From IMG/VR virus record IMGVR_UViG_3300036820_000006, positions 1 to 64,000 of that record: a stretch of 64,000 bases of DNA; one strand, given 5' to 3'. Below, piece after piece: positions 45,913-62,647 of this stretch; the stretch's first letter is position 1; each line of letters opens with the position of its first letter. Position numbers and translations under genes: made by a program. Source of the DNA: a virus. The notes beneath the pieces were generated by a model. That model searched no databases and was not told the DNA's origin. It saw only the letters and a program-made list of their open reading frames with translations.

Positions 45913-46680
45913 TTAGTCTTGGGGTCCATTTGATTCACCTCCTCCCTCGCGCGGTTCCTGTGGGCCGAGAGCGGCTACTTCGGGAATTGGCGGAAGCTTA
46001 TCGAGGTCTAAGCCATACTTCGCGGCTATCGTCTCATTCATCTTTCGCAACTGTTCGTCCTTGAAGTCAGGCAGGCGTCCGTTTTCAGCCTGTTCCCCGG
46101 ATGGGGGCGCGGGAATAGTTTTATTCCACTGGGCGCAAATCCAATCGGCCACCTCTGAGTCTTCACATTCCGCGATGGTATGGCCATTGGCAAAGACGGC
46201 GAACCCGTCGGATTGAAAAGTTCCGTTGATCGCAAGCCCGTAACTCGCTCGACCGGGATACATCTTGTGAGCCTGATGGTCATCACTCAGGGCCGCAGCT
46301 TCGGGACCAAGCTTGATTTCCGCTTGCTGCAACCGTTTCCGAAGATCATTGCAAATCTCAATCTGAGACTGAAGCGCAACTTGAAGGTCGCGATAGGAAC
46401 CGCAGTGAAGCGCAATATCAGCTTCTCGTGCATCGGCGAAATCCTTCAATTTAGCCGGGTCCACAGGTTGCAGGGCCGCAGCTTCGGGTGTGCTGGCCGG
46501 GTATGAAATAGATGGGTCAGCGAGGTAGCTTTCGCATAGGCAATAACAGCAACCTCTAGAACCGTCCGATTTCATATTGCAGCAATGCGCCACTCTTGTG
46601 TGATGGCACACATCACAAGGCACTAAATCTTCAAATGTGGGTACGCGCCCCACTTGCTTTCCCCCTTCTGCGCTGTTCAT
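45913..46680 (-). CDS. mosaic accessory protein
   Basis: Cys cluster; modules separated by PE(A/V)AAL. Confidence 0.55.
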   Translation of the reverse strand: MNSAEGGKQVGRVPTFEDLVPCDVCHHTRVAHCCNMKSDGSRGCCYCLCESYLADPSISYPASTPEAAALQPVDPAKLKDFADAREADIALHCGSYRDLQVALQSQIEICNDLRKRLQQAEIKLGPEAAALSDDHQAHKMYPGRASYGLAINGTFQSDGFAVFANGHTIAECEDSEVADWICAQWNKTIPAPPSGEQAENGRLPDFKDEQLRKMNETIAAKYGLDLDKLPPIPEVAALGPQEPREGGGESNGPQD

Positions 46681-47039
46681 AAGGTCTCCTTCGCACGCAA
46701 TAGACGATCTATCTCAGCAGCAATAAGAGCGCCCGCTTTGGCGAGATTGCGAATAGGATCGGGTGAAGGTTTCCACCACTTCTCGTCCCACGGCCACCAG
46801 CCCTCGTTGTCGGCTCCGGGCACCTCATGGTCACTTACAATCTCCAGTGCGTGGGCGGCATAGGTAACCGCAGCTCCGATCATCTCTCCCGTGATGTGCT
46901 CGTCGTCGTGCTCCGGCGTCCATCCTTCGGCGCATATCTGTCGTCTACGCTCTGCTGCGATAAGTTCAGCACCATCCATCGTCATCTCCAATTTCTCCTG
47001 CTCTCCTACATTCCGGGGTACAGAGGGGTCAAAAGTCAT
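46677..47039 (-). CDS. conserved phage protein (IAAERRRQ...WWKP...AEIDRL type)
   Basis: Recognisable widespread phage family pattern; function not assigned. Confidence 0.75.
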   Translation of the reverse strand: MTFDPSVPRNVGEQEKLEMTMDGAELIAAERRRQICAEGWTPEHDDEHITGEMIGAAVTYAAHALEIVSDHEVPGADNEGWWPWDEKWWKPSPDPIRNLAKAGALIAAEIDRLLRAKETL

Positions 47040-47071
47040 AGGTGCTCTCCTCTGAAATCAGAACTACGGCC

Positions 47072-47377
47072 CTACTTGGGGTCAGGTTTGACGGGCATAC
47101 CGAGGCGTTCCCTCAACTCGTCTTTGTCAATATCTGCACACGCTTTTCGATATTCCGCATCGGTAAGCCATAGCAGCCAGTCGGGCCAACCCTTCAGCTT
47201 GCCAGAGCCATACTTCCAGTCATGAATCCACTCAGAGAATGTCCGTCGCCTGAAGCATCTCTCTAGCAACCGAACGCCCATAAGAATCACTACGTCGGGC
47301 GCATTCAACTCAATCAGCCGTTTCAGCCGGTCTCTCCTGATTCCATAGAGACTCCGTTCCACTATCAACTTACTCAT
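47072..47377 (-). CDS. hypothetical protein
   Basis: AAGGAG RBS. Confidence 0.6.
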   Translation of the reverse strand: MSKLIVERSLYGIRRDRLKRLIELNAPDVVILMGVRLLERCFRRRTFSEWIHDWKYGSGKLKGWPDWLLWLTDAEYRKACADIDKDELRERLGMPVKPDPK

Positions 47378-47690
47378 GGCTTTCTCCTTTCGGTGCGCTG
47401 AGGGCGTCGTAGCGGCGGATTATGGGGGCAGCCTTACTTTGCGCTTCCCTAAACTCGCCCATCGTAATTACATCTTGATATCCCCTCAGCGCTTCTACGG
47501 CTTCGCGGAGGAGGTCAGGCTTGACCACATCAGAGGCGGCTTCTCAAGCGTCTAACAATGGAATCATTACGAGTTGCGGATGAACGCAGATCGTGCGGTT
47601 CTCACTAGAAGCAGATGTCACTCCCTTGCGCAATGCTGTTATCAGCTCCGGTGACAACTCGGGCCGCTGGTCCTGCTTTCCATCACTCAT
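47374..47690 (-). pseudogene. disrupted small gene
   Basis: ATG 47690 with GAGGTG RBS; MSDGKQ...LLDA, then in-frame TGA, continuing EAASDVVKPDLLREAVEALRG and an apparent later frameshift. Confidence 0.4.
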
Positions 47691-47693
47691 GGC

Positions 47694-48053
47694 TCACCTT
47701 CTTTCCCGATGAGACTTTCTGGCGTTCAAGTGTTGCGCGCAGAAATCGCGACGGGATGCGAAGATGAACGAATCCGTCCTTGAAAGAGTTGTGACCCACC
47801 TCGGTCGGCAGTCCATGCGTGCGCACAACACCTTCATGCCGAGCCTGCCCGCTGCCAGCGTGAGCGCGTTCTTGATGCTCATGGGCGGAATGAAAACTTC
47901 CTTGGTCTGAGGATCATAATGCAAATGCTCACGCCATGTGCGCTTGCGATAAGCATCGTAAGATTCTTGGTCTTCCTTTTCGGTTTCGTGGTAACGAGAC
48001 TGCGAATAAGGTGATACTCCTTCAAGCTCGACGGTTGCGATGCGAACGGACAT
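47694..48053 (-). pseudogene. RAMP/Cas7-like protein, truncated after about 75 codons
   Basis: VELEGVSPYSQSR and VFIPPMSIKNAL match RAMP beta1 and helix motifs; no C-terminal Gly-rich loop; sequence after LGMKV (~47828) reads better in another frame. Confidence 0.6.
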
Positions 48054-48090
48054 TGAAATTCTCCCTTGGATTTGAGTTTGAGTTATGAAA

Positions 48091-48270
48091 ACGTTACGTT
48101 ACATTACATCAAGCAGCGCGAAGTTGAGACACGATGCAGCACGCAGCAGAACGTTACAGGACGCAACGTAGCGCTGCACTGTGATGCCCCATGACGCGTT
48201 GCGAAACGACGCCCAACAGCACAGAATGCTGCGACATGCGGCGTTACGTAGCGACACGGAACGTTACGCA
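48091..48270 (-). ncRNA. 5-nt-period CGY-NN array 1 (36 units), putative guide RNA
   Basis: On + strand 19/36 units start RCG and the other 17 differ at one position; register unbroken. Confidence 0.8.
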
Positions 48271-48284
48271 ATCTCTAGCAAGCT

Positions 48285-48791
48285 TTACTCTTGAATGGCC
48301 TTGGACCCGAAAAGTTTCAGTGTCTCATCCATCGGCAGTGGACGAGTACGATTGCCAACCGCATCAGCGATCACCTTCTGCGTGCGCTCAGTAGCGCCCT
48401 TCTGGATGAACTGCAGAATCGTCAGCGAGGTATTGTGTTGCAGCTTTGACTGTGCGCTGAGCGAGTCGTAATCGACTGCCTGCAACCGGCGCGATGCACG
48501 CTTGGCTGCCTTGCTGAGCTTGCGCAAGTCCGCAGTGCTTAGACTGGGAACTTCTTCATTGGGCACTAGCCGTACGCCTCGGCCCCAGTCCACCACAAAC
48601 ACCATGCCTTGTTCACTGAGCAGCTTATTAGTTGATGTGGTAAGGACGTTGCGTCGATGCCGCACATCACACCCACACAGGGCGTTCAGCTCGGTATACG
48701 TTACGGTCTCTCCCGGTTTGGCCTCGGCAAGCCGACGCAGAGCGATAGTAGTCTCAACCGCGAGATTACCCTTGATTGGAATATACGGCAT
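48285..48791 (-). CDS. winged-helix-like protein between arrays
   Basis: AAGGGAG RBS; PGETVTYTELNALCG...GRGVRL. Confidence 0.7.
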   Translation of the reverse strand: MPYIPIKGNLAVETTIALRRLAEAKPGETVTYTELNALCGCDVRHRRNVLTTSTNKLLSEQGMVFVVDWGRGVRLVPNEEVPSLSTADLRKLSKAAKRASRRLQAVDYDSLSAQSKLQHNTSLTILQFIQKGATERTQKVIADAVGNRTRPLPMDETLKLFGSKAIQE

Positions 48792-48821
48792 TCAGAATCT
48801 CCCTTTCTGATGATGCCAGTA

Positions 48822-48921
48822 ACAGTTCGGTACGGTACGTCACGTGACATGAAGGTGCGTTACGGGACATCACCTCACGGGACGGGACGATGCGGCGCGT
48901 AACAAAAAGATATGCAACATT
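48822..48921 (-). ncRNA. 5-nt-period CGY-NN array 2 (20 units)
   Basis: 10/20 RCG, rest one mismatch; begins just downstream of a - strand promoter. Confidence 0.75.
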
Positions 48922-48934
48922 CACGCCATCTACC

Positions 48935-48964
48935 GTTATACACATATAGCCACGAATCTGTCAA
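48935..48964 (-). promoter_or_regulatory. promoter TTGACA-N18-TATAAC
   Basis: TGTCAA 48959-48964 and GTTATA 48935-48940 on +; 9-bp inverted repeat overlaps it. Confidence 0.75.
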
Positions 48965-48991
48965 CATATATGTGTGTACCAAATCGATGCT

Positions 48992-51900
48992 CTAAAATTT
49001 GACCTCCTGCAGCTCCGCCATGTTCGGCCCGCAGGCACATTCAATGCCCACTACCAGACCCTCTGGAGCGAGCTGTGGATGCACCAGCACATTACTCGGC
49101 CTACCGAACACGTCGCTGATATCATGCAACATCTGCGCACGCAAGCCTACTGGATAACAGAGCAGAATGCTGTCGTGAATCGTGTTGCACAGGCCGTAGC
49201 GCTCAGCCAACCCTTCACGATCTAGCGCTTTCAACCGCTCACGCAGGTCGCCGTGCGCCTCGCTCTGCACTCTGAATGCCATGGCGGCGTTGAACTGCTC
49301 GCCAGGTTTCCAGCTGCCTTTACCATCGGGCACGTAGACCTCGTAAAACCATCGCAACATTCCGTAGCGGTTCTTTAGCATGCCCTGCCGGTGCGCCTCT
49401 TCGCACACGTTGCGCTGCCATACGAACACCTTTGGGAACAGACGCTCAATAACAGTGCGGAACTCTCTAGCCTGCTTCAATGAGGCGAAATGTTCACGGT
49501 TCATTTCGTAAAGATGTGGCGGCATCAACCCCAACGCAATGCCAAGAATACTCGGCTTGGCCTGCCGGTCACGCACGGCTTTATAACGCTCATTGGACCT
49601 GAACCAGCGAAAGCGATCCATCAGCTCGTCGTCAGGTAGCGCGAACAGCTTATCCGCATCCGGCAGGCGCAGAAAGTTCCACGCCACAAAGCTGTGCATG
49701 TCCAGCCGTGCCATACGGCAGTTATGTGACAAGAATCCCTCCGCGATAAATGTTTTAGTACTCGTACCTAGTGCCACGACAGGATGATTTCCTATAGACT
49801 CAATTTTCAAAATCTTGGCGTCATGCGCAAGTTTTCCAAACACGTTCATGCCTTCTAGCCTAGACAAGCACTTAGGTAATAATCGCTTTGGTCTAAATTG
49901 CCCCAGCGCACGTATACCCGCGAATGGCTGCCCCACAAACCTAAATGTACGGCAATCTCGTTGGGGATTGTTAGCACTGTCCCCAAGGCTATAACCATAT
50001 TTAGCTAACATACTTGCTACCGAGTCCGCGATAATCCCAGGTCTCTGTGCGAAACTTAGCTGGCACCCATTACTAAGGGACCCCTCCCCATCCAAAATTC
50101 CGGCAATATATCCTTGATCCCATAGATCAGCACTCTTCCATGGCGGGGTAAACGTGCTCAAGTACATACCCGTAGCTAATTCATCAGCCCTGCGCCAGCT
50201 TACTCGTTGCTTAGTATCAAACTTAGCTAGCCATGTGTGTTCTATGCTGCATGTAACAACGCCTTGGTCAGTGGTAATGCGCACACACGGACGTTCAATA
50301 TAATCCACGGACTCAATTACGGATTTACGTAGCTTGCGTTTGCCCTCTATCGGAAACTCATCGAATCCCCAAAGTACCTCTCCCTCTCGCAGGTCTATGG
50401 CACGTCTCCATTGCAGGTCGGCCGTCAGAATACGAGTATCTGGGGCCACACAATAAGACTCATCTTCAGCTAAGAACCCTGTAATAAGGACATGATAACT
50501 TTTCAAATCCCAGTTCGCCAGCTCATACCCCGCTGGCGCTTCGATCATACTTTTTATAGCCTTACCCAACTTACCGTGGGCAGGGTAAGTTTGCGTAGAT
50601 GGATTGCGCGCACTTAGCTGTCCAGTCGCGGGCGCGAAGGTAAAAGTGGTGTGTACTCGGCCGTCGGCGTGCGGTTTGAACCCGTCAACATAAGTGCTCG
50701 ACATCTTTCCCATCTCACGGCATTCAATCACCTTCGTATAAAAGTCATCCTTGTGCCTAACTGCGAGACGTTCTAGCTCTTTTTTGTTGGTGGTGTCACT
50801 GCCTTTCTTGCGATCTTTGGGAATCTTATGCCCACGCACCCGCATATAATTCATCAGTTGCGGCGATGAGTTTGGTGAGAATTCATACACACGGCACCAG
50901 CGTGCAACCCCGGCAGTCTGTGTGCCAAGCTGCTCATCAAATACCTGCTGGCCAAACTGGCGCACATCAAAATAGAAGCGCTCACCCGGTTCCTCGACGC
51001 CATCTTCATCCGTGGTCGGCGGGTCCTCGAACATGCGCGCGCGGATCACCGCTATCTCGTCGGCAGTTACATTGCTATAACGATTAAGGTAAGCATTCTT
51101 GGCGGACTCGGTTAGCGCTTTCTTTGTCTGCTTGCCTTCCACCACCGGAATCCGAGTCGGCGTGATCTCTTCTAGCAGCTCTTTGACGCGAGGGGGCACT
51201 CCGGCATAACCATCCTTCGGCGTGATCTTTCTGGCGTCGGCGGGGAACCTGGCATCCAGCTCTAGCAGCAGCTCCGCACGCGTAGCATCAAACTGCGCGC
51301 CTAGCGCCAGCCTACGCTCATTATTAATCGGCAGGCCCCGCTGCTCCATTTTGGCTAGAATTGGCCGCACTGCTTCGACTTGGTTCTCATAGCCGACAGC
51401 GGCGCGCGCAGGCTGCGGGTCATACCATATCCCGCGATCTACCATAGTGCGGTACGAGACTGAATGAATACGCTGTGTCGCGTCCACGTCTACGCAGCCG
51501 TAGAACTCCAGATTGGTGCCGTTCAAATGCTTCCAGGGGAACGGGAACTGCGCATAGCTAGCAGCGAACTGCAGATGCGCGGGCAAATCCGGCTGCATAA
51601 AGTGGAACTGTTGTAAGGTATCGTGTACCGGCCCGGCAAGTTCGAGATAGGTGGCATTGCCGAAATCGCGCTGGCCGACCGCGCGCAGAACTTTCAAATC
51701 GAATAAATTGTAATTATGCCCCAGCTTCGGCAGCGGCAGTTTCAGCAGCCATCTTGTCGCTTGAATAAAAGGCTGCTTCCACGGCATCGCAATAGCTTGG
51801 CCTGGCGCGACGCTGAACTGACTTAGCCTAATCTGCGTATCGGTGAATCCATCCGTTGCGTCTTCATCTAGCGATGCCGATTCAAAAGTTTCGATATCGT

Positions 51901-52693
51901 GTGCCAGCGCGGTTAGTACGTGCTCAGCGGTACCGGGAATGCTGGCCAGCCACGCATCTGAACGCGCTTTTACATCGCGGCAGAAATCGTCCAACTGAAT
52001 AAGTGTTGGATGCAAGGTGTAATTTAGGTGGTTCTGTTGCAGCCACGCTGCTACTGCTTCAGCATCGTTATCCTGCAGCATGTCCAGAATAAAACTTTTA
52101 TCTTTACCGTAACGCACGTTGACCGCGCGTTGAATATCTCGCGCCAGCACGCCGGTGAGATGAATCGCGCCTCGGCGCAGGAAACTAGGATGATATGTAG
52201 GCACCACCAGAAGTTCGCAGCCTGCTGCTTCGCAGAACTCTGGCAGCGCGCGAAACACATAACCGCGCATATGGCTAATAGTGCGCTTTTCGCCCGAGAT
52301 GCCCGTCAAAGTGCGGAACGGAATGCCGCCAAGCGCCACTACAGTGCGCGGCTTGAACTTGCGAAAGAATTCCAATAGATTAGGCTGGCACTGATTGATG
52401 ACGGAGAACTCATAGTTAGTTCCAGCTAGCGCGTTCCCAAATGGTCTGCAGCGCAACGTATTCGAGATTGCGAACTGGTCGCGGGAGAATCCCAGCCGAC
52501 GCAGCGTGCGCTCTAAGACAGCTCCAGCTGGTGCGTATTTGACAAAAGGAGTTAGTTCACGCGCCTCGTTTTCTCCGCTGGCCTCGCCAATGAGAGCAAC
52601 GCCTAAGCTGCAGCTTCCTTCTGGCTGGGAGAAGTCAGTGCCAGCATTGTATAGATAGCAATTTCTACAGCTATCTGGCTTACTCCTGACCAC
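48992..52693 (-). CDS. family A DNA polymerase with N-terminal family-4 UDG-like domain and intein
   Basis: UDG: IGEASGENE, NTLRCRP, TYHPS; exo: HDIET, GHN..FDL, YGCVD; pol: ATGQLSARNP, DLKSYH, AKPSILG, IHDS. Confidence 0.9.
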   Translation of the reverse strand: MVRSKPDSCRNCYLYNAGTDFSQPEGSCSLGVALIGEASGENEARELTPFVKYAPAGAVLERTLRRLGFSRDQFAISNTLRCRPFGNALAGTNYEFSVINQCQPNLLEFFRKFKPRTVVALGGIPFRTLTGISGEKRTISHMRGYVFRALPEFCEAAGCELLVVPTYHPSFLRRGAIHLTGVLARDIQRAVNVRYGKDKSFILDMLQDNDAEAVAAWLQQNHLNYTLHPTLIQLDDFCRDVKARSDAWLASIPGTAEHVLTALAHDIETFESASLDEDATDGFTDTQIRLSQFSVAPGQAIAMPWKQPFIQATRWLLKLPLPKLGHNYNLFDLKVLRAVGQRDFGNATYLELAGPVHDTLQQFHFMQPDLPAHLQFAASYAQFPFPWKHLNGTNLEFYGCVDVDATQRIHSVSYRTMVDRGIWYDPQPARAAVGYENQVEAVRPILAKMEQRGLPINNERRLALGAQFDATRAELLLELDARFPADARKITPKDGYAGVPPRVKELLEEITPTRIPVVEGKQTKKALTESAKNAYLNRYSNVTADEIAVIRARMFEDPPTTDEDGVEEPGERFYFDVRQFGQQVFDEQLGTQTAGVARWCRVYEFSPNSSPQLMNYMRVRGHKIPKDRKKGSDTTNKKELERLAVRHKDDFYTKVIECREMGKMSSTYVDGFKPHADGRVHTTFTFAPATGQLSARNPSTQTYPAHGKLGKAIKSMIEAPAGYELANWDLKSYHVLITGFLAEDESYCVAPDTRILTADLQWRRAIDLREGEVLWGFDEFPIEGKRKLRKSVIESVDYIERPCVRITTDQGVVTCSIEHTWLAKFDTKQRVSWRRADELATGMYLSTFTPPWKSADLWDQGYIAGILDGEGSLSNGCQLSFAQRPGIIADSVASMLAKYGYSLGDSANNPQRDCRTFRFVGQPFAGIRALGQFRPKRLLPKCLSRLEGMNVFGKLAHDAKILKIESIGNHPVVALGTSTKTFIAEGFLSHNCRMARLDMHSFVAWNFLRLPDADKLFALPDDELMDRFRWFRSNERYKAVRDRQAKPSILGIALGLMPPHLYEMNREHFASLKQAREFRTVIERLFPKVFVWQRNVCEEAHRQGMLKNRYGMLRWFYEVYVPDGKGSWKPGEQFNAAMAFRVQSEAHGDLRERLKALDREGLAERYGLCNTIHDSILLCYPVGLRAQMLHDISDVFGRPSNVLVHPQLAPEGLVVGIECACGPNMAELQEVKF
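49721..50452 (-). mobile_element. intein (244 aa) with LAGLIDADG motif
   Basis: CVAPDTRIL...FIAEGFLSHN|C; YIAGILDGEG; lower GC. Confidence 0.9.
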
Positions 52694-56809: not shown

Positions 56810-57001
56810 ATTGTTCTGGCTGAGAAGGGGCACCCACTCAGCCAGATTTGGAGGGACGATACGCGGTTAGCCAAGCTGTGGGTAAGGGCGGCTCACAGCT
56901 TTTGCTCGTACTCGCGTTCGTCCCATGACGAGTAGAAGGTGTGTAGGGGGAGAGCACCGAGAACTTAGAAAATAACTAAGCGCTCTCCTCCAAGTTTGGA
57001 A

Positions 57002-57076
57002 CCGTTACGCTACGAAACTATGCGGGACTGTAAGATATGGGACAATGCGCCACGTCGAGTTACGCGGCGGCACGAT
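57002..57076 (-). ncRNA. 5-nt-period CGY-NN array 3 (15 units)
   Basis: 8/15 RCG, rest one mismatch; starts 2 nt after the SSB-like stop and is followed by a hairpin (56947-56991). Confidence 0.7.
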
Positions 57077-57078
57077 AG

Positions 57079-57834
57079 TTACTTCTTCGGAAAATATCCG
57101 ACGACGACAGCCTGCGCCCGCATCGCAACGTCACCGAGCTTGCCCGGCACTGTGATTTCCGGCACGCGCTTACCGTCACGTTCTGGAAACCGGTGCATCC
57201 CTTTCACGCGCTTCGGCAAACGCTCGCCGCGCTCTTTGTAAAGTTCCACAGTGTCCTGATCGGGCTGACCTTCCCATGAAGTTTCGATTTCGAGCGTGGG
57301 CTCGCTGGCCAGCGTCTTCTGGAACAATTCTTTCAACTGACCCGCACTCATATTGCTAGGCACCTTCACGCCGAGGCATTGCAGAATTCTGACCATCGCA
57401 ATTCCGCCATTTCTCGCCGTCCGGCTATCGACGAAGCGATCAAAAACCGGAATATTATCGAACTTCCCACTGGGGTCCTGAATGCGGCACTCCAGCGCCG
57501 TGCTCACATACAGCTTCGGCTTACCATTCGCCAGAAAAACAGGCTTTCCCGGCGCGCCCTTGCTGTAGTCCATGTCCTGCTTCACGGCGAACAGCACTTC
57601 CTTGCCGTCAGCATCCTTGACGTTCAACTGTTTTAGCTTGGCAGTGTAACGGCCATCCGGCACGGGCGGCGGGAACTCGTATGGGTTGGCGCTGGCATCG
57701 AACTCCAGCGATTCTTCCAGCAGCGAGGGATCGTTCAGGTCCACTGACACGATTTGTTGGTCATCGGCGGCGCTGTCAGTGGACACACTACCAGCGGTCT
57801 CGTCGGCGTAGATAGGTTGAGCGAAATCAGTCAT
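57079..57834 (-). CDS. putative single-stranded DNA-binding protein (DUF669-like)
   Basis: PPVPDGRYTAKL motif; next to AAA_24 ATPase. Confidence 0.55.
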   Translation of the reverse strand: MTDFAQPIYADETAGSVSTDSAADDQQIVSVDLNDPSLLEESLEFDASANPYEFPPPVPDGRYTAKLKQLNVKDADGKEVLFAVKQDMDYSKGAPGKPVFLANGKPKLYVSTALECRIQDPSGKFDNIPVFDRFVDSRTARNGGIAMVRILQCLGVKVPSNMSAGQLKELFQKTLASEPTLEIETSWEGQPDQDTVELYKERGERLPKRVKGMHRFPERDGKRVPEITVPGKLGDVAMRAQAVVVGYFPKK

Positions 57835-61919: not shown

Positions 61920-62647
61920 TCGTCACCTCTTGGCGCATCATCATCATCTTCCGGTGTATCGCTCTCAGGCACCCGTTTCGTAAGCGTGTCCTCTTTGGTG
62001 AGATTGTCCAAGCCGCTGAAGATATCGCTTAGCTTCAGCCCGACAAGCACCGGGTCGGTTGCCTCAGCAGCGGGCTCAACGGCAGGCTCTACTGCGACGC
62101 GCGTTTCTGGGATTCGCTTACCCTCTAACCGATCCTGCATAACCGCTTCTGTGCGCGCATATTGCTCAGCAGTGTTCGCCATTACGCAGCGTGGGCAATA
62201 TGAGTGGTAATATTCGTGATCTTTGCAATGCGCTGCTTGTGCTAAACCCGCGCCCAGCCCTGCCGCGCCCAGCCCTGCGTTATCCAAAAGGGAAGAAGCA
62301 AACCCAGCCCCCAGCGCATTCCCCGGCTCCTGTCCCGACAGCGTTTCCCCAGCTGGAGCAGAAGACTGAGGCTCTCTCACTCCCCCGCCTTTCCCGCCTA
62401 ACTCCAGACCTGCACTGTCGCGACGCTCATGCGCACCCATGTTCGCTTCTCCCCCAGCGCTATACGCTAACAGACCCTTCCTGTGCCAGTCAACACCTTT
62501 TTCCACAGCGCGATACCGTGTTAGTTTGAGCTTGACTTTCCACCACGGTACTTCAGGATGGCGTTCTCGTTTGCTGCCGCTACCGTTCGTTGCCAATGGG
62601 AAGGAGCACAGCATACACCTCACACCACCCTGCTGCATAGACCTCAC
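61916..62647 (-). CDS. hypothetical protein, start uncertain
   Basis: 3' part with CKDH..CPRC overlaps next gene start; 5' part low quality. Confidence 0.4.
   Translation of the reverse strand: MRSMQQGGVRCMLCSFPLATNGSGSKRERHPEVPWWKVKLKLTRYRAVEKGVDWHRKGLLAYSAGGEANMGAHERRDSAGLELGGKGGGVREPQSSAPAGETLSGQEPGNALGAGFASSLLDNAGLGAAGLGAGLAQAAHCKDHEYYHSYCPRCVMANTAEQYARTEAVMQDRLEGKRIPETRVAVEPAVEPAAEATDPVLVGLKLSDIFSGLDNLTKEDTLTKRVPESDTPEDDDDAPRGDD

What the first reader, a model, noticed from the sequence alone, without database searches (positions are those of the whole stretch)
47694..48975. Operon of 5-nt-period CGY-NN arrays, a wHTH gene and a RAMP/Cas7-like gene: candidate non-contiguous RNA-guided system
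Seen: on the - strand, promoter TTGACA-N18-TATAAC, then array 2 (20 pentamers), wHTH gene, array 1 (36 pentamers) and a RAMP-like gene. Every pentamer is CGY or one mismatch from it plus a freely varying dinucleotide, and the register is never broken. This is neither a CRISPR repeat-spacer array nor a simple microsatellite. Knowledge (recalled, not verified here): phage VIPR systems pair a RAMP-like protein with GGY/NN repeat RNAs whose NN pairs specify a gapped DNA target. Inference: this is a CGY variant of such a system, with one protein subunit per pentamer, plus an accessory wHTH protein.
Basis: partly seen in the sequence, partly recalled or inferred. Interest (0 to 1): 0.95.

Follow-up and report, generated by a model that had tools for sequence, protein, structure and literature searches.

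The report
Phage VIPR locus with broken effector
This is a real example of the VIPR RNA-guided DNA-silencing system described in 2026, in a complete 99-kb phage: its five-base-repeat guide arrays use CGY instead of GGY, its own effector gene is cut short, and one guide spells the catalytic motif of the ImmA/IrrE proteases that rival prophages carry.

Summary
On the - strand there are a 20-unit array (48822-48921) and a 36-unit array (48091-48270) of NN-CGY pentamers. The register is never broken, and no unit is more than one mismatch from CGY.

- Full-length ~190-aa homologues of the downstream ORF match the solved SUSP1 Vipr protein (profile E 1.8e-9; hhalign 97.6%) and fold as Cas7-type RAMPs.
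- 90 of 108 homologous loci carry period-5 arrays within 1 kb, against 0 of 466 control chunks.
- The 168-aa gene is a conserved winged-helix-like accessory gene (vap).

Corrections and additions:
- The window's vipr keeps only codons 1-79. The thumb and G-loop are gone, and the complete genome holds no second copy.
- Three more arrays exist, one of them in the window at 57002-57076.
- Under the published 1-nt-skip rule, units 19-32 of array 1 read QRFTIAHELGHYLL. The 10-codon core matches at least 107 viral contigs, all in frame; five sampled genes are Peptidase_M78 (ImmA/IrrE).
- Across the family, CGY versus GGY tracks two Vipr residues.

Orphan vrRNAs on vipr-null phages are also in print. 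This scan has logged VIPR-type loci in many other genomes. Verdict: new member of a known kind.

The parts
48935..48964 (-). Promoter-like element TTGACA-N18-TATAAC, about 15 nt upstream of array 2
   Evidence: Read from the sequence. It is one of only two such matches in the 99-kb genome. The consensus scan did not call it. Its function is untested.
48822..48921 (-). Array 2: 20 NN-CGY pentamers (candidate vrRNA). It ends in ACCGT ACCGA ACTGT, about 30 nt before the vap start codon.
   Evidence: 10 perfect units, 10 one-off, none worse. No target was found.
48285..48791 (-). vap: 168-aa Vipr-accessory protein with an N-terminal winged-helix-like domain and a helical C-terminal half. The gene is intact.
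   Evidence: Homologues lie beside vipr on the same strand in 42 non-identical related loci. The AF2 model has pLDDT 92.9 with an H-b-H-H-b-b topology. VIA-align gives Z 7.5 to the PurR wHTH domain and Z 7.1 to ScpB. hhalign against SUSP1 Vap1 gives probability 52%, E 1.5e-4. There is no Pfam hit.
48181..48270 (-). Array 1, units 1-18: the 5' guide or guides, target unknown
   Evidence: Matches to ImmA genes fall to background beyond unit 19. A 20-base pattern from this part gave 0 hits in viral contigs.
48111..48180 (-). Array 1, units 19-32: a 14-unit guide. Reverse-complemented and read as NNx codons, its NN dinucleotides spell [Q/H]R[F/L]T[I/M]A[H/Q][E/D][L/F]G[H/Q]YLL, the HEXXH motif of ImmA/IrrE (Peptidase_M78).
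   Evidence: The best hits match 13 contiguous NN. All five sampled genes are Pfam PF06114. Five other 20-base patterns gave 0 hits.
48091..48110 (-). Array 1, units 33-36 (GATGT AATGT AACGT AACGT): repeated 3'-terminal units followed by TTTT, probably a non-guide 3' end
   Evidence: Natural ImmA matches stop before these units. Repeated identical terminal pentamers followed by a T-run also close arrays in related loci L012, L018 and L048.
47817..48053 (-). vipr remnant: codons 1-79 of a Vipr-family RAMP gene
   Evidence: It is up to 77% identical to the N-termini of 187-196-aa homologues. Every match stops at query residue 74-79. The family profile covers only positions 2-76 of 189 in the whole genome.
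47694..47816 (-). Forty unrelated codons plus the stop, fused to the vipr remnant. This replaces the roughly 110 codons that encode the thumb and G-loop.
   Evidence: No similarity to any Vipr homologue in the alignment or in the other frames.
57002..57076 (-). A third NN-CGY array (15 units) in the window. It is intergenic, directly after the 251-aa ORF 57079-57834, and is followed by a hairpin.
   Evidence: A 20-base pattern from it gave 0 hits. Two further arrays lie outside the window, at genome 68542-68646 (-) and 84386-84505 (+).

Best explanation
The region is a VIPR locus (Viral Interference Programmable Repeat) of a subclade whose guide RNAs repeat CGY/NN rather than GGY/NN. It lies in a complete 99,275-bp phage genome.

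In an intact relative, each roughly 190-aa Vipr protomer would bind one pentamer. It would bury the CGY triplet and present the NN pair. The filament would then bind double-stranded DNA whose sequence reads NNx NNx and so on (the 1-nt-skip rule) and silence transcription, with the winged-helix-like Vap as helper.

In this phage a deletion or rearrangement has cut vipr after codon 79. The thumb and glycine-rich loop that hold the RNA are gone, and the genome has no second copy. vap and five arrays (116 units in all) are still intact.

One guide (48111-48180) reads codon positions 1-2 of QRFTIAHELGHYLL, the zinc-binding motif of ImmA/IrrE metallopeptidases. In known elements such as ICEBs1 these cleave the immunity repressor. 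The phage has no such gene. The lineage's guides are therefore aimed at rival temperate elements, most likely to keep them from being induced.

As it stands, the locus is either a recently inactivated system or a set of orphan guides that need a CGY-type Vipr supplied by another element.

Basis of each step:
- Shown here: homology, fold, arrays, truncation, motif match.
- Taken from the preprints on the SUSP1 system: filament, skip rule, silencing.
- Inferred: the biological aim, and whether the arrays still act.
For: - Profiles of full-length homologues hit PDB 36pp_D 'SUSP1 Vipr protein' at E 7.3e-6 and 1.8e-9. hhalign against the SUSP1 gene gives 97.6%, E 4e-12, over 143 columns.
- The AF2 model of a homologue has pLDDT 89.6. 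Its top Foldseek hits are all Cas7, Csm3 or Cmr4, at E about 1e-8.
- 90 of 108 homologous loci carry a period-5 array within 1 kb, against 0 of 466 control chunks.
- vap homologues sit beside vipr in 42 loci.
- Truncation. No other Vipr-like ORF lies next to the other arrays.
- G000 is a complete virus record with terminal repeats.
- ImmA guide. The phage's own genome has no Peptidase_M78 gene and no self-target.
- The closest intact relative, L059, has a homologous guide directly upstream of vipr, with 10 of 14 NN identical.
- Published mechanism: 10.64898/2026.04.26.720920.720927 and 10.64898/2026.10.15.759431.
Against: - No RNA data exist, so the strand, the ends and the processing of the arrays are inferred.
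- Only one of roughly seven guides could be decoded.
- The full 28-base ImmA pattern has no exact match in viral contigs. The best hits match 13 of 14 NN, and they come from unrelated environments, so the true target element is unknown.
- The variant guide of the relative L059 found no match.
- The truncation rests on a single metagenome assembly.
- No conserved 3' tail or pseudoknot like that of SUSP1 vrRNAs was seen.
- The skip rule and the silencing mode were shown for GGY-type systems, not for CGY-type ones.
Confidence: 0.8

Rival explanations
1. The arrays are still in use. This vipr-null phage loads its orphan vrRNAs onto a CGY-type Vipr made by a resident prophage, satellite or co-infecting phage, as published for SUSP1-family phages and satellites. 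It keeps vap because Vap is still useful.
For: - Solo vrRNAs on 346 vipr-null Enterobacteriaceae phages, and working satellite-borne solo vrRNAs, are reported in 10.64898/2026.10.15.759431.
- Here all 116 units in five arrays keep register, with none more than one mismatch from CGY.
- vap is full length.
- A promoter-like element is kept.
Against: - If the deletion is recent, intact arrays say nothing about selection. No close relatives were available to test conservation.
- The published vipr-null phages lost vap1 as well, whereas this one kept vap.
- None of the guides matches vipr, vap or the arrays of 137 related loci, so the anti-VIPR targeting seen in SUSP1 relatives is not seen here.
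Confidence: 0.35
2. The truncation is an assembly or consensus artefact (a chimeric junction or a minority deletion variant), and the real phage carries an intact, self-sufficient VIPR operon.
For: - The record is a single metagenome-assembled genome.
- The remaining 79 codons show no stop or frameshift and are up to 77% identical to homologues.
- Everything else in the locus is intact.
Against: - The contig is complete with terminal repeats.
- The sequence after the junction runs on into a normal-looking next gene.
- The missing 3' half of vipr is nowhere in the genome.
- Natural vipr deletions are documented in other phages.
Confidence: 0.15
3. The 119-aa ORF is itself an active mini-effector, so the operon works as it stands.
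For: It is an open frame with a Shine-Dalgarno-like GGGAG upstream.
Against: - It lacks every element that contacts RNA in SUSP1 Vipr: the thumb (R138 equivalent) and the G-loop (D177/W178/R179 equivalents).
- Its last 40 residues match nothing.
- All 350 detectable relatives align only to its residues 1-103 at most, typically 1-76.
Confidence: 0.03
4. The period-5 tracts are not guide RNAs. They are DNA-level or 5'-UTR repeats, for example binding sites for the winged-helix protein or translational control elements.
For: At least four of the five arrays lie just upstream of a ribosome-binding site and start codon, on the coding strand.
Against: - The arrays co-occur with Vipr genes across more than 90 unrelated loci.
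- The identity of the first repeat base tracks two Vipr residues.
- One array decodes to a conserved foreign coding motif under the published rule.
Confidence: 0.03

Closest known systems
VIPR systems (Vipr + vap + vrRNA), experimental reference type II of Escherichia phage SUSP1 (bioRxiv 10.64898/2026.04.26.720920 and .720927)
   Same: - A phage-borne, minimal locus of a small single-RRM RAMP, a DNA-binding-type accessory gene and intergenic pentamer arrays with two free positions.
- No CRISPR array.
- The Vipr family is homologous to SUSP1 Vipr.
- One guide fits the 1-nt-skip rule, with the skipped base at the codon wobble position.
   Different: - The repeat is CGY (C 77%, T 16% at the first position), not GGY. 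The Methods of the first preprint list YNNNG-type variants, which this fits, but I could not see their logos.
- Only 22% identity to SUSP1 Vipr.
- The residues that read GG in SUSP1 are replaced across the family: D177 to R, W178 to F, R138 to F or Y.
- No pseudoknot tail was detected.
- The gene order is vap then vipr.
- Arrays sit at four separate places in the genome.
- vipr is truncated here.
- The VIPR type (I-VII) could not be assigned, because the figures and tables are not held.
VIPR-null phages and satellites with solo/orphan vrRNAs (bioRxiv 10.64898/2026.10.15.759431)
   Same: - A phage that cannot make Vipr but still carries vrRNA arrays.
- A guide that reads codon positions 1-2 of invariant residues of a rival element's key gene.
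   Different: - Those phages are SUSP1 relatives of Enterobacteriaceae. They lost vipr and vap1 together and keep one or two vrRNAs.
- Here vipr is cut in the middle, vap is kept and five arrays remain, in an unrelated uncultured phage.
- The target is ImmA/IrrE rather than a recombinase, vipr or vrRNAs.
Class 1 CRISPR backbone RAMPs (Cas7, Csm3, Cmr4; type VII Cas7)
   Same: Same fold. The best structural matches of the family model are type VII Cas7 and Csm3, at Foldseek E about 1e-8 and TM about 0.55-0.6. Both have a glycine-rich loop and one subunit per fixed RNA step.
   Different: - No CRISPR repeat-spacer array.
- No other cas genes were seen in the locus or beside the other arrays.
- The step is 5 nt with 3 bases buried, rather than 6 nt with 1 flipped.
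- The target is gapped double-stranded DNA.

Membership tests
VIPR system | A Vipr protein homologous to characterised Vipr | tested here: met
   The family profile against PDB 36pp_D (SUSP1 Vipr) gives E 1.8e-9. hhalign against the SUSP1 gene gives 97.6%, E 4e-12. The window's own copy holds only residues 1-79 of this family.
VIPR system | RAMP fold with thumb and glycine-rich loop in the locus's own effector | tested here: not met
   The family model has the fold and the G-loop motif GxGRFRPxxxGFYGRF. The window's gene ends before both elements, and the genome has no other copy. The locus is therefore a VIPR locus with a broken effector.
VIPR system | vrRNA arrays: tandem pentamers with a conserved trinucleotide (GGY or a related consensus) alternating with a hypervariable NN | tested here: met
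   There are 116 units in five arrays, and every unit is CGY or one mismatch from it. The NN positions carry 0.03-0.5 bit. CGY fits the YNNNG form named in the preprint's Methods.
VIPR system | Arrays flank vipr in independent homologues | tested here: met
   90 of 108 loci, against 0 of 466 control chunks. Examples are shown.
VIPR system | Adjacent accessory gene (vap), typically a predicted DNA binder | tested here: met
   Whether it is specifically vap1 is inconclusive (hhalign 52%).
VIPR system | Guides match natural targets by the 1-nt-skip rule, with skipped bases at wobble positions | tested here: met
   Met for one guide only (units 19-32 of array 1). The other guides remain undeciphered.
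VIPR system | Conserved structured 3' tail on each vrRNA | tested here: inconclusive
   No Rfam match and no shared tail sequence among the five arrays. Most arrays in this clade end in two or three identical pentamers plus a T-run.
VIPR system | vrRNAs are expressed and co-purify with Vipr; the complex binds and silences DNA | not testable with these tools
   This needs RNA sequencing, pull-down and reporter assays.
CRISPR-Cas (class 1) | Repeat-spacer array | tested here: not met
   No tandem or spaced repeat of CRISPR type in 46500-50000.
CRISPR-Cas (class 1) | Additional cas genes | tested here: inconclusive
   The neighbours scanned have no Pfam or PHROG cas annotation. The rest of the genome was not searched for cas genes.

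The most novel reading that the evidence does not exclude
A phage outside the Enterobacteriaceae/SUSP1 group has lost its own Vipr but keeps vap and five CGY-type guide arrays, which it loads onto a rival's or resident element's Vipr. At least one guide is a broad-spectrum guide against the invariant HEXXH codons of ImmA/IrrE anti-repressor proteases. It would lock resident prophages or satellites in the repressed state during infection. In addition, the G-to-C switch at repeat position 1 is set by two Vipr residues (V/F versus L/Y). That would make CGY and GGY systems orthogonal, so that guides can only be hijacked within a type.
Probability: 0.25. Interest if true: 0.65.

Novelty: new member of a known kind. 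Interest (0 to 1): 0.45.

Why it matters
VIPR was first described in 2026 and nearly all experiments are on one E. coli phage. This locus adds four things.
- It is a clean natural example of the CGY repeat form, with a testable pair of protein residues that track C versus G at the first repeat base. That is a lead for making orthogonal Vipr and guide sets.
- It is a second, independent lineage in which the effector gene is lost while the guides stay. This bears on the idea that guides are traded or hijacked between elements.
- It gives a target class (the ImmA/IrrE catalytic motif) that does not appear in word searches of the main texts of preprints 1 and 3. It fits the published logic of reading only codon positions 1-2 of residues the rival cannot change.
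- It shows vrRNA arrays scattered at four places in one phage genome.

None of this changes the picture of what VIPR is.

Tried and rejected
The long contigs of the closest homologues (P0003, P0005, P0008) could not be fetched, so no near relative of this phage with an intact vipr could be compared at the junction.
- DNA and protein searches of the annotated phage collection gave nothing close. There was no DNA match, only a 27% Vipr match in Pseudomonas phage LESphi2, and no vap match.
- Self-targeting was rejected. No array matches the phage's own genome better than shuffled guides do.
- Anti-VIPR targeting was rejected for the sampled data. No guide matches 137 related VIPR loci above shuffles.
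- An idea that the 5' half of array 1 targets an XRE-type HTH (…TQAELTR…) found no support.
- A 23-of-28-base hit of array 2 in L219 was a single hit with no readable frame, and I treated it as chance.
- Exact-pattern scans for array 2, array 84, array 57 and the L059 variant guide each found nothing. The full 28-base ImmA pattern also found nothing.
- A second, divergent Vipr next to the other arrays was rejected.
- The genome search cannot draw relatives for a virus record, so host genomes were not scanned for the target.
- A GGY-like run at 62245-62314 is only a 15-nt duplication, probably coding.
- No supplementary tables of the preprints are held, so the VIPR type and the authors' own list of loci could not be checked.

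Full report
**What is in the sequence**

All genes of the region read on the - strand. In order they are:
- the end of a 1233-aa intein-containing DNA polymerase gene (48992-52693);
- a promoter-like TTGACA-N18-TATAAC (48935-48964);
- array 2 (48822-48921);
- a 168-aa ORF (48285-48791);
- array 1 (48091-48270);
- a 119-aa ORF (47694-48053).

Array 1 is 36 pentamers in one unbroken register: 19 are NN-CGY and 17 are one mismatch away, none worse. The fifth position is a pyrimidine in 36 of 36. Array 2 is 20 pentamers, 10 perfect and 10 one-off.

The three CGY positions carry about 1 bit each, and the two N positions almost none. A period-5 G-pyrimidine scan of the 64-kb window reaches 10 of 12 or more only here and only on the - strand, whereas shuffles reach 9 at most. 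A period of 5 cannot be coding. Tandem Repeats Finder sees nothing, because 40% of the positions vary.

**What the proteins are**

Neither ORF has a Pfam hit. The 119-aa ORF finds proteins of 187-196 aa, but only through its first 74-79 residues. In the alignment its remaining 40 residues match nothing. The homologues go on to GKGxKTY, DGxxGSGxRV and a C-terminal GxGRFRPxxxGFYGRF.

Evidence that this family is Vipr:
- A profile of 16 full-length homologues hits one solved structure, 36pp_D 'SUSP1 Vipr protein', at E 7.3e-6. A 45-sequence profile hits it at E 1.8e-9.
- hhalign against the SUSP1 gene from the phage record gives 97.6% probability, E 4e-12, over 143 columns at 22% identity.
- An AlphaFold model of a homologue (pLDDT 89.6) finds only Cas7-type RAMPs at the top of the PDB: type VII Cas7, Csm3 and Cmr4, at E about 1e-8.

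Homologues of the 168-aa protein lie beside vipr, on the same strand, in 42 non-identical related loci, sometimes before and sometimes after it. Its model (pLDDT 92.9) has an N-terminal H-b-H-H-b-b winged-helix topology. This matches PurR, ScpB, BirA and OmpR-type DNA-binding domains at middling scores (Z 6.3-7.5; Foldseek E 0.01 or weaker). The C-terminal half is helical. Its profile aligns weakly with SUSP1 Vap1 (52%, E 1.5e-4). It is a vap gene. Calling it vap1 would go beyond the evidence.

**Do relatives carry the arrays?**

Yes. Of 108 loci with a full-length homologue and enough flank, 90 have a period-5 run (9 of 10 or better) within 1 kb of vipr. None of 466 2-kb chunks of unrelated viral loci do. 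Printed examples show vrRNA-like units of 12-17 pentamers that end in two or three identical pentamers and a T-run. The repeat is CGC-NN in L012, GGC-NN in L018 and CGT-NN in L048.

**The known system**

VIPR was described in bioRxiv 10.64898/2026.04.26.720920 as Vipr plus vap plus vrRNAs of 9-16 GGY/NN repeats. The NN pairs read double-stranded DNA with one base skipped per unit, and binding silences transcription. Its Methods mention alternative repeats NNNGG, YNNNG and NNNNG; CGY-NN is Y-NN-C-G and fits YNNNG.

The structural companion paper shows one protomer per repeat. In SUSP1, G1 is read by H17 and D177, G2 by R138 and W178, and Y3 by R179 among others.

A third preprint (10.64898/2026.10.15.759431) reports 346 vipr-null phages that keep solo vrRNAs. 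It also reports guides that read only codon positions 1-2 of invariant residues.

The kind of system, the orphan-guide situation and the targeting logic are therefore all in print. This scan has also logged VIPR-type loci in many other genomes.

**What is particular here: a broken effector**

The window is part of a complete virus record of 99,275 bp with terminal repeats. The Vipr profile finds a single match in it, covering positions 2-76 of 189. The thumb and G-loop are absent, and the ORFs next to the other arrays are not Vipr-like. vap is full length. I cannot exclude an assembly artefact and put it at about 15%.

**What is particular here: more arrays**

The genome holds five arrays with 116 units in all. 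The third (57002-57076, - strand) is in the window. Two more lie at genome 68542-68646 (-) and 84386-84505 (+). All are intergenic and on the strand of the flanking genes. At least four of them end shortly before a ribosome-binding site.

**What is particular here: a decoded guide**

Units 19-32 (48111-48180), reverse-complemented and read as NNx, give CAx CGx TTx ACx ATx GCx CAx GAx TTx GGx CAx TAx CTx CTx. This reads [Q/H]R[F/L]T[I/M]A[H/Q][E/D][L/F]G[H/Q]YLL.

- Every match is in frame as RFT[I/M]AHE[L/F]GH.
- The best hits match 13 contiguous NN, and matching drops to background outside the 14 units.
- Five sampled genes are all Pfam Peptidase_M78, the IrrE/ImmA family.
- Five other 20-base patterns built the same way found nothing, so chance expectation is below one hit.
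- The phage has no Peptidase_M78 gene and no self-target.

The full 28 bases have no exact match, so the real target element is not in hand. The closest intact relative (L059, metagenome contig) has a homologous 17-unit array directly upstream of its vipr, with 10 of 14 guide NN the same. Array 1 is therefore best read as two guides, with the break at unit 18/19. The other guides remain undeciphered.

**What is particular here: C versus G at the first repeat base**

I compared 59 non-identical Vipr loci that have at least 12 scored units.
- Proteins with V in LF-V-P and F in K-x-F-P have GGY or G-rich mixed repeats.
- Proteins with L or M and Y (or M) have CGY, with G at 4% or less in most.
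- Three of the four L…M loci (L004, L089, L125) break this pattern, with G at 8-79%.
- Among the 36 loci with a pure G-type or C-type repeat, the two alignment columns separate the types perfectly.

The window's nearest homologues are of the L…Y class, in line with its arrays. On a quick, weakly resolved tree the label needs about 7 changes, and well-supported branches force at least 2. Shared descent still explains much of the association.

Both HMMER and hhalign place the F/Y column opposite SUSP1 R138, the thumb residue that holds G2. D177, W178 and R179 correspond to R, F and R in the whole family. That the two residues set the specificity is an inference to be tested, not a result.

**How it most likely works**

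In intact relatives the CGY-type Vipr should polymerise on each array transcript, one protomer per pentamer. It would bury the CGY triplet and expose the NN pair, then bind DNA reading NNx and block transcription, helped by Vap. This is taken from the SUSP1 work, not shown here.

The ImmA guide suggests the aim. In known elements such as ICEBs1, ImmA-type proteases cleave the immunity repressor and so trigger induction. Silencing them would keep resident elements quiet during infection. This parallels the published silencing of a satellite's excision recombinase.

In this phage the effector is gone. Either the system died recently, or the guides depend on a Vipr made by another element, as published for SUSP1 relatives. 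I cannot separate these readings.

**Verdict**

It is a new member of a known kind, with three modest leads: the CGY residue pair, the ImmA target, and a second lineage of effector-less guide carriers.

Noticed in passing
window 57002-57076 (- strand); also genome 68542-68646 (-) and 84386-84505 (+), outside the window: Three further NN-CGY arrays of 15, 21 and 24 units lie far from the vipr/vap locus. Each is intergenic and on the strand of its neighbours. Their targets are unknown.
   Followed up: partly
window 48060-48095, 48795-48825, 56985-57002; genome about 68520-68545 and 84506-84530: Four of the five arrays are followed within a few bases by (A/T)TCCA(A/C) and then a GGAG-type ribosome-binding site. 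This may be ordinary leader sequence or part of the RNA's 3' end.
   Followed up: no
L012:2660-3000, L018:3560-3700, L048:3553-4360 and the window arrays: In this Vipr clade most vrRNA units end in two or three identical pentamers (for example CAACG x3, GCAAG x3, ATCGC x3, AACGT x2), usually followed by a T-run. No structured tail of the SUSP1 kind is evident.
   Followed up: partly
L008:3591-3670, and loci L007, L010, L017: Some related loci show the G-pyrimidine period-5 signal only on the strand opposite vipr. These are either inverted arrays or a side effect of GC-palindromic SGC repeats.
   Followed up: no
window 48992-52693 (- strand): A 1233-aa family-A DNA polymerase gene lies directly upstream of the locus. 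It has an N-terminal uracil-DNA-glycosylase-like region and an intein-like insertion. These features are read by eye from the translation and were also noted by other readers.
   Followed up: no
genome 83454-83882 (+), outside the window: An HNH endonuclease gene (phrog_99, E 4e-21) lies about 500 bp upstream of the 84386-84505 array.
   Followed up: no
L004, L016, L074, L097 and other 'mixed' loci: Many V…F-type Vipr loci use both GGY and CGY units within the same arrays (G 44-80%, C 15-44%). L…Y-type loci almost never use G. Tolerance at repeat position 1 therefore looks one-sided.
   Followed up: partly
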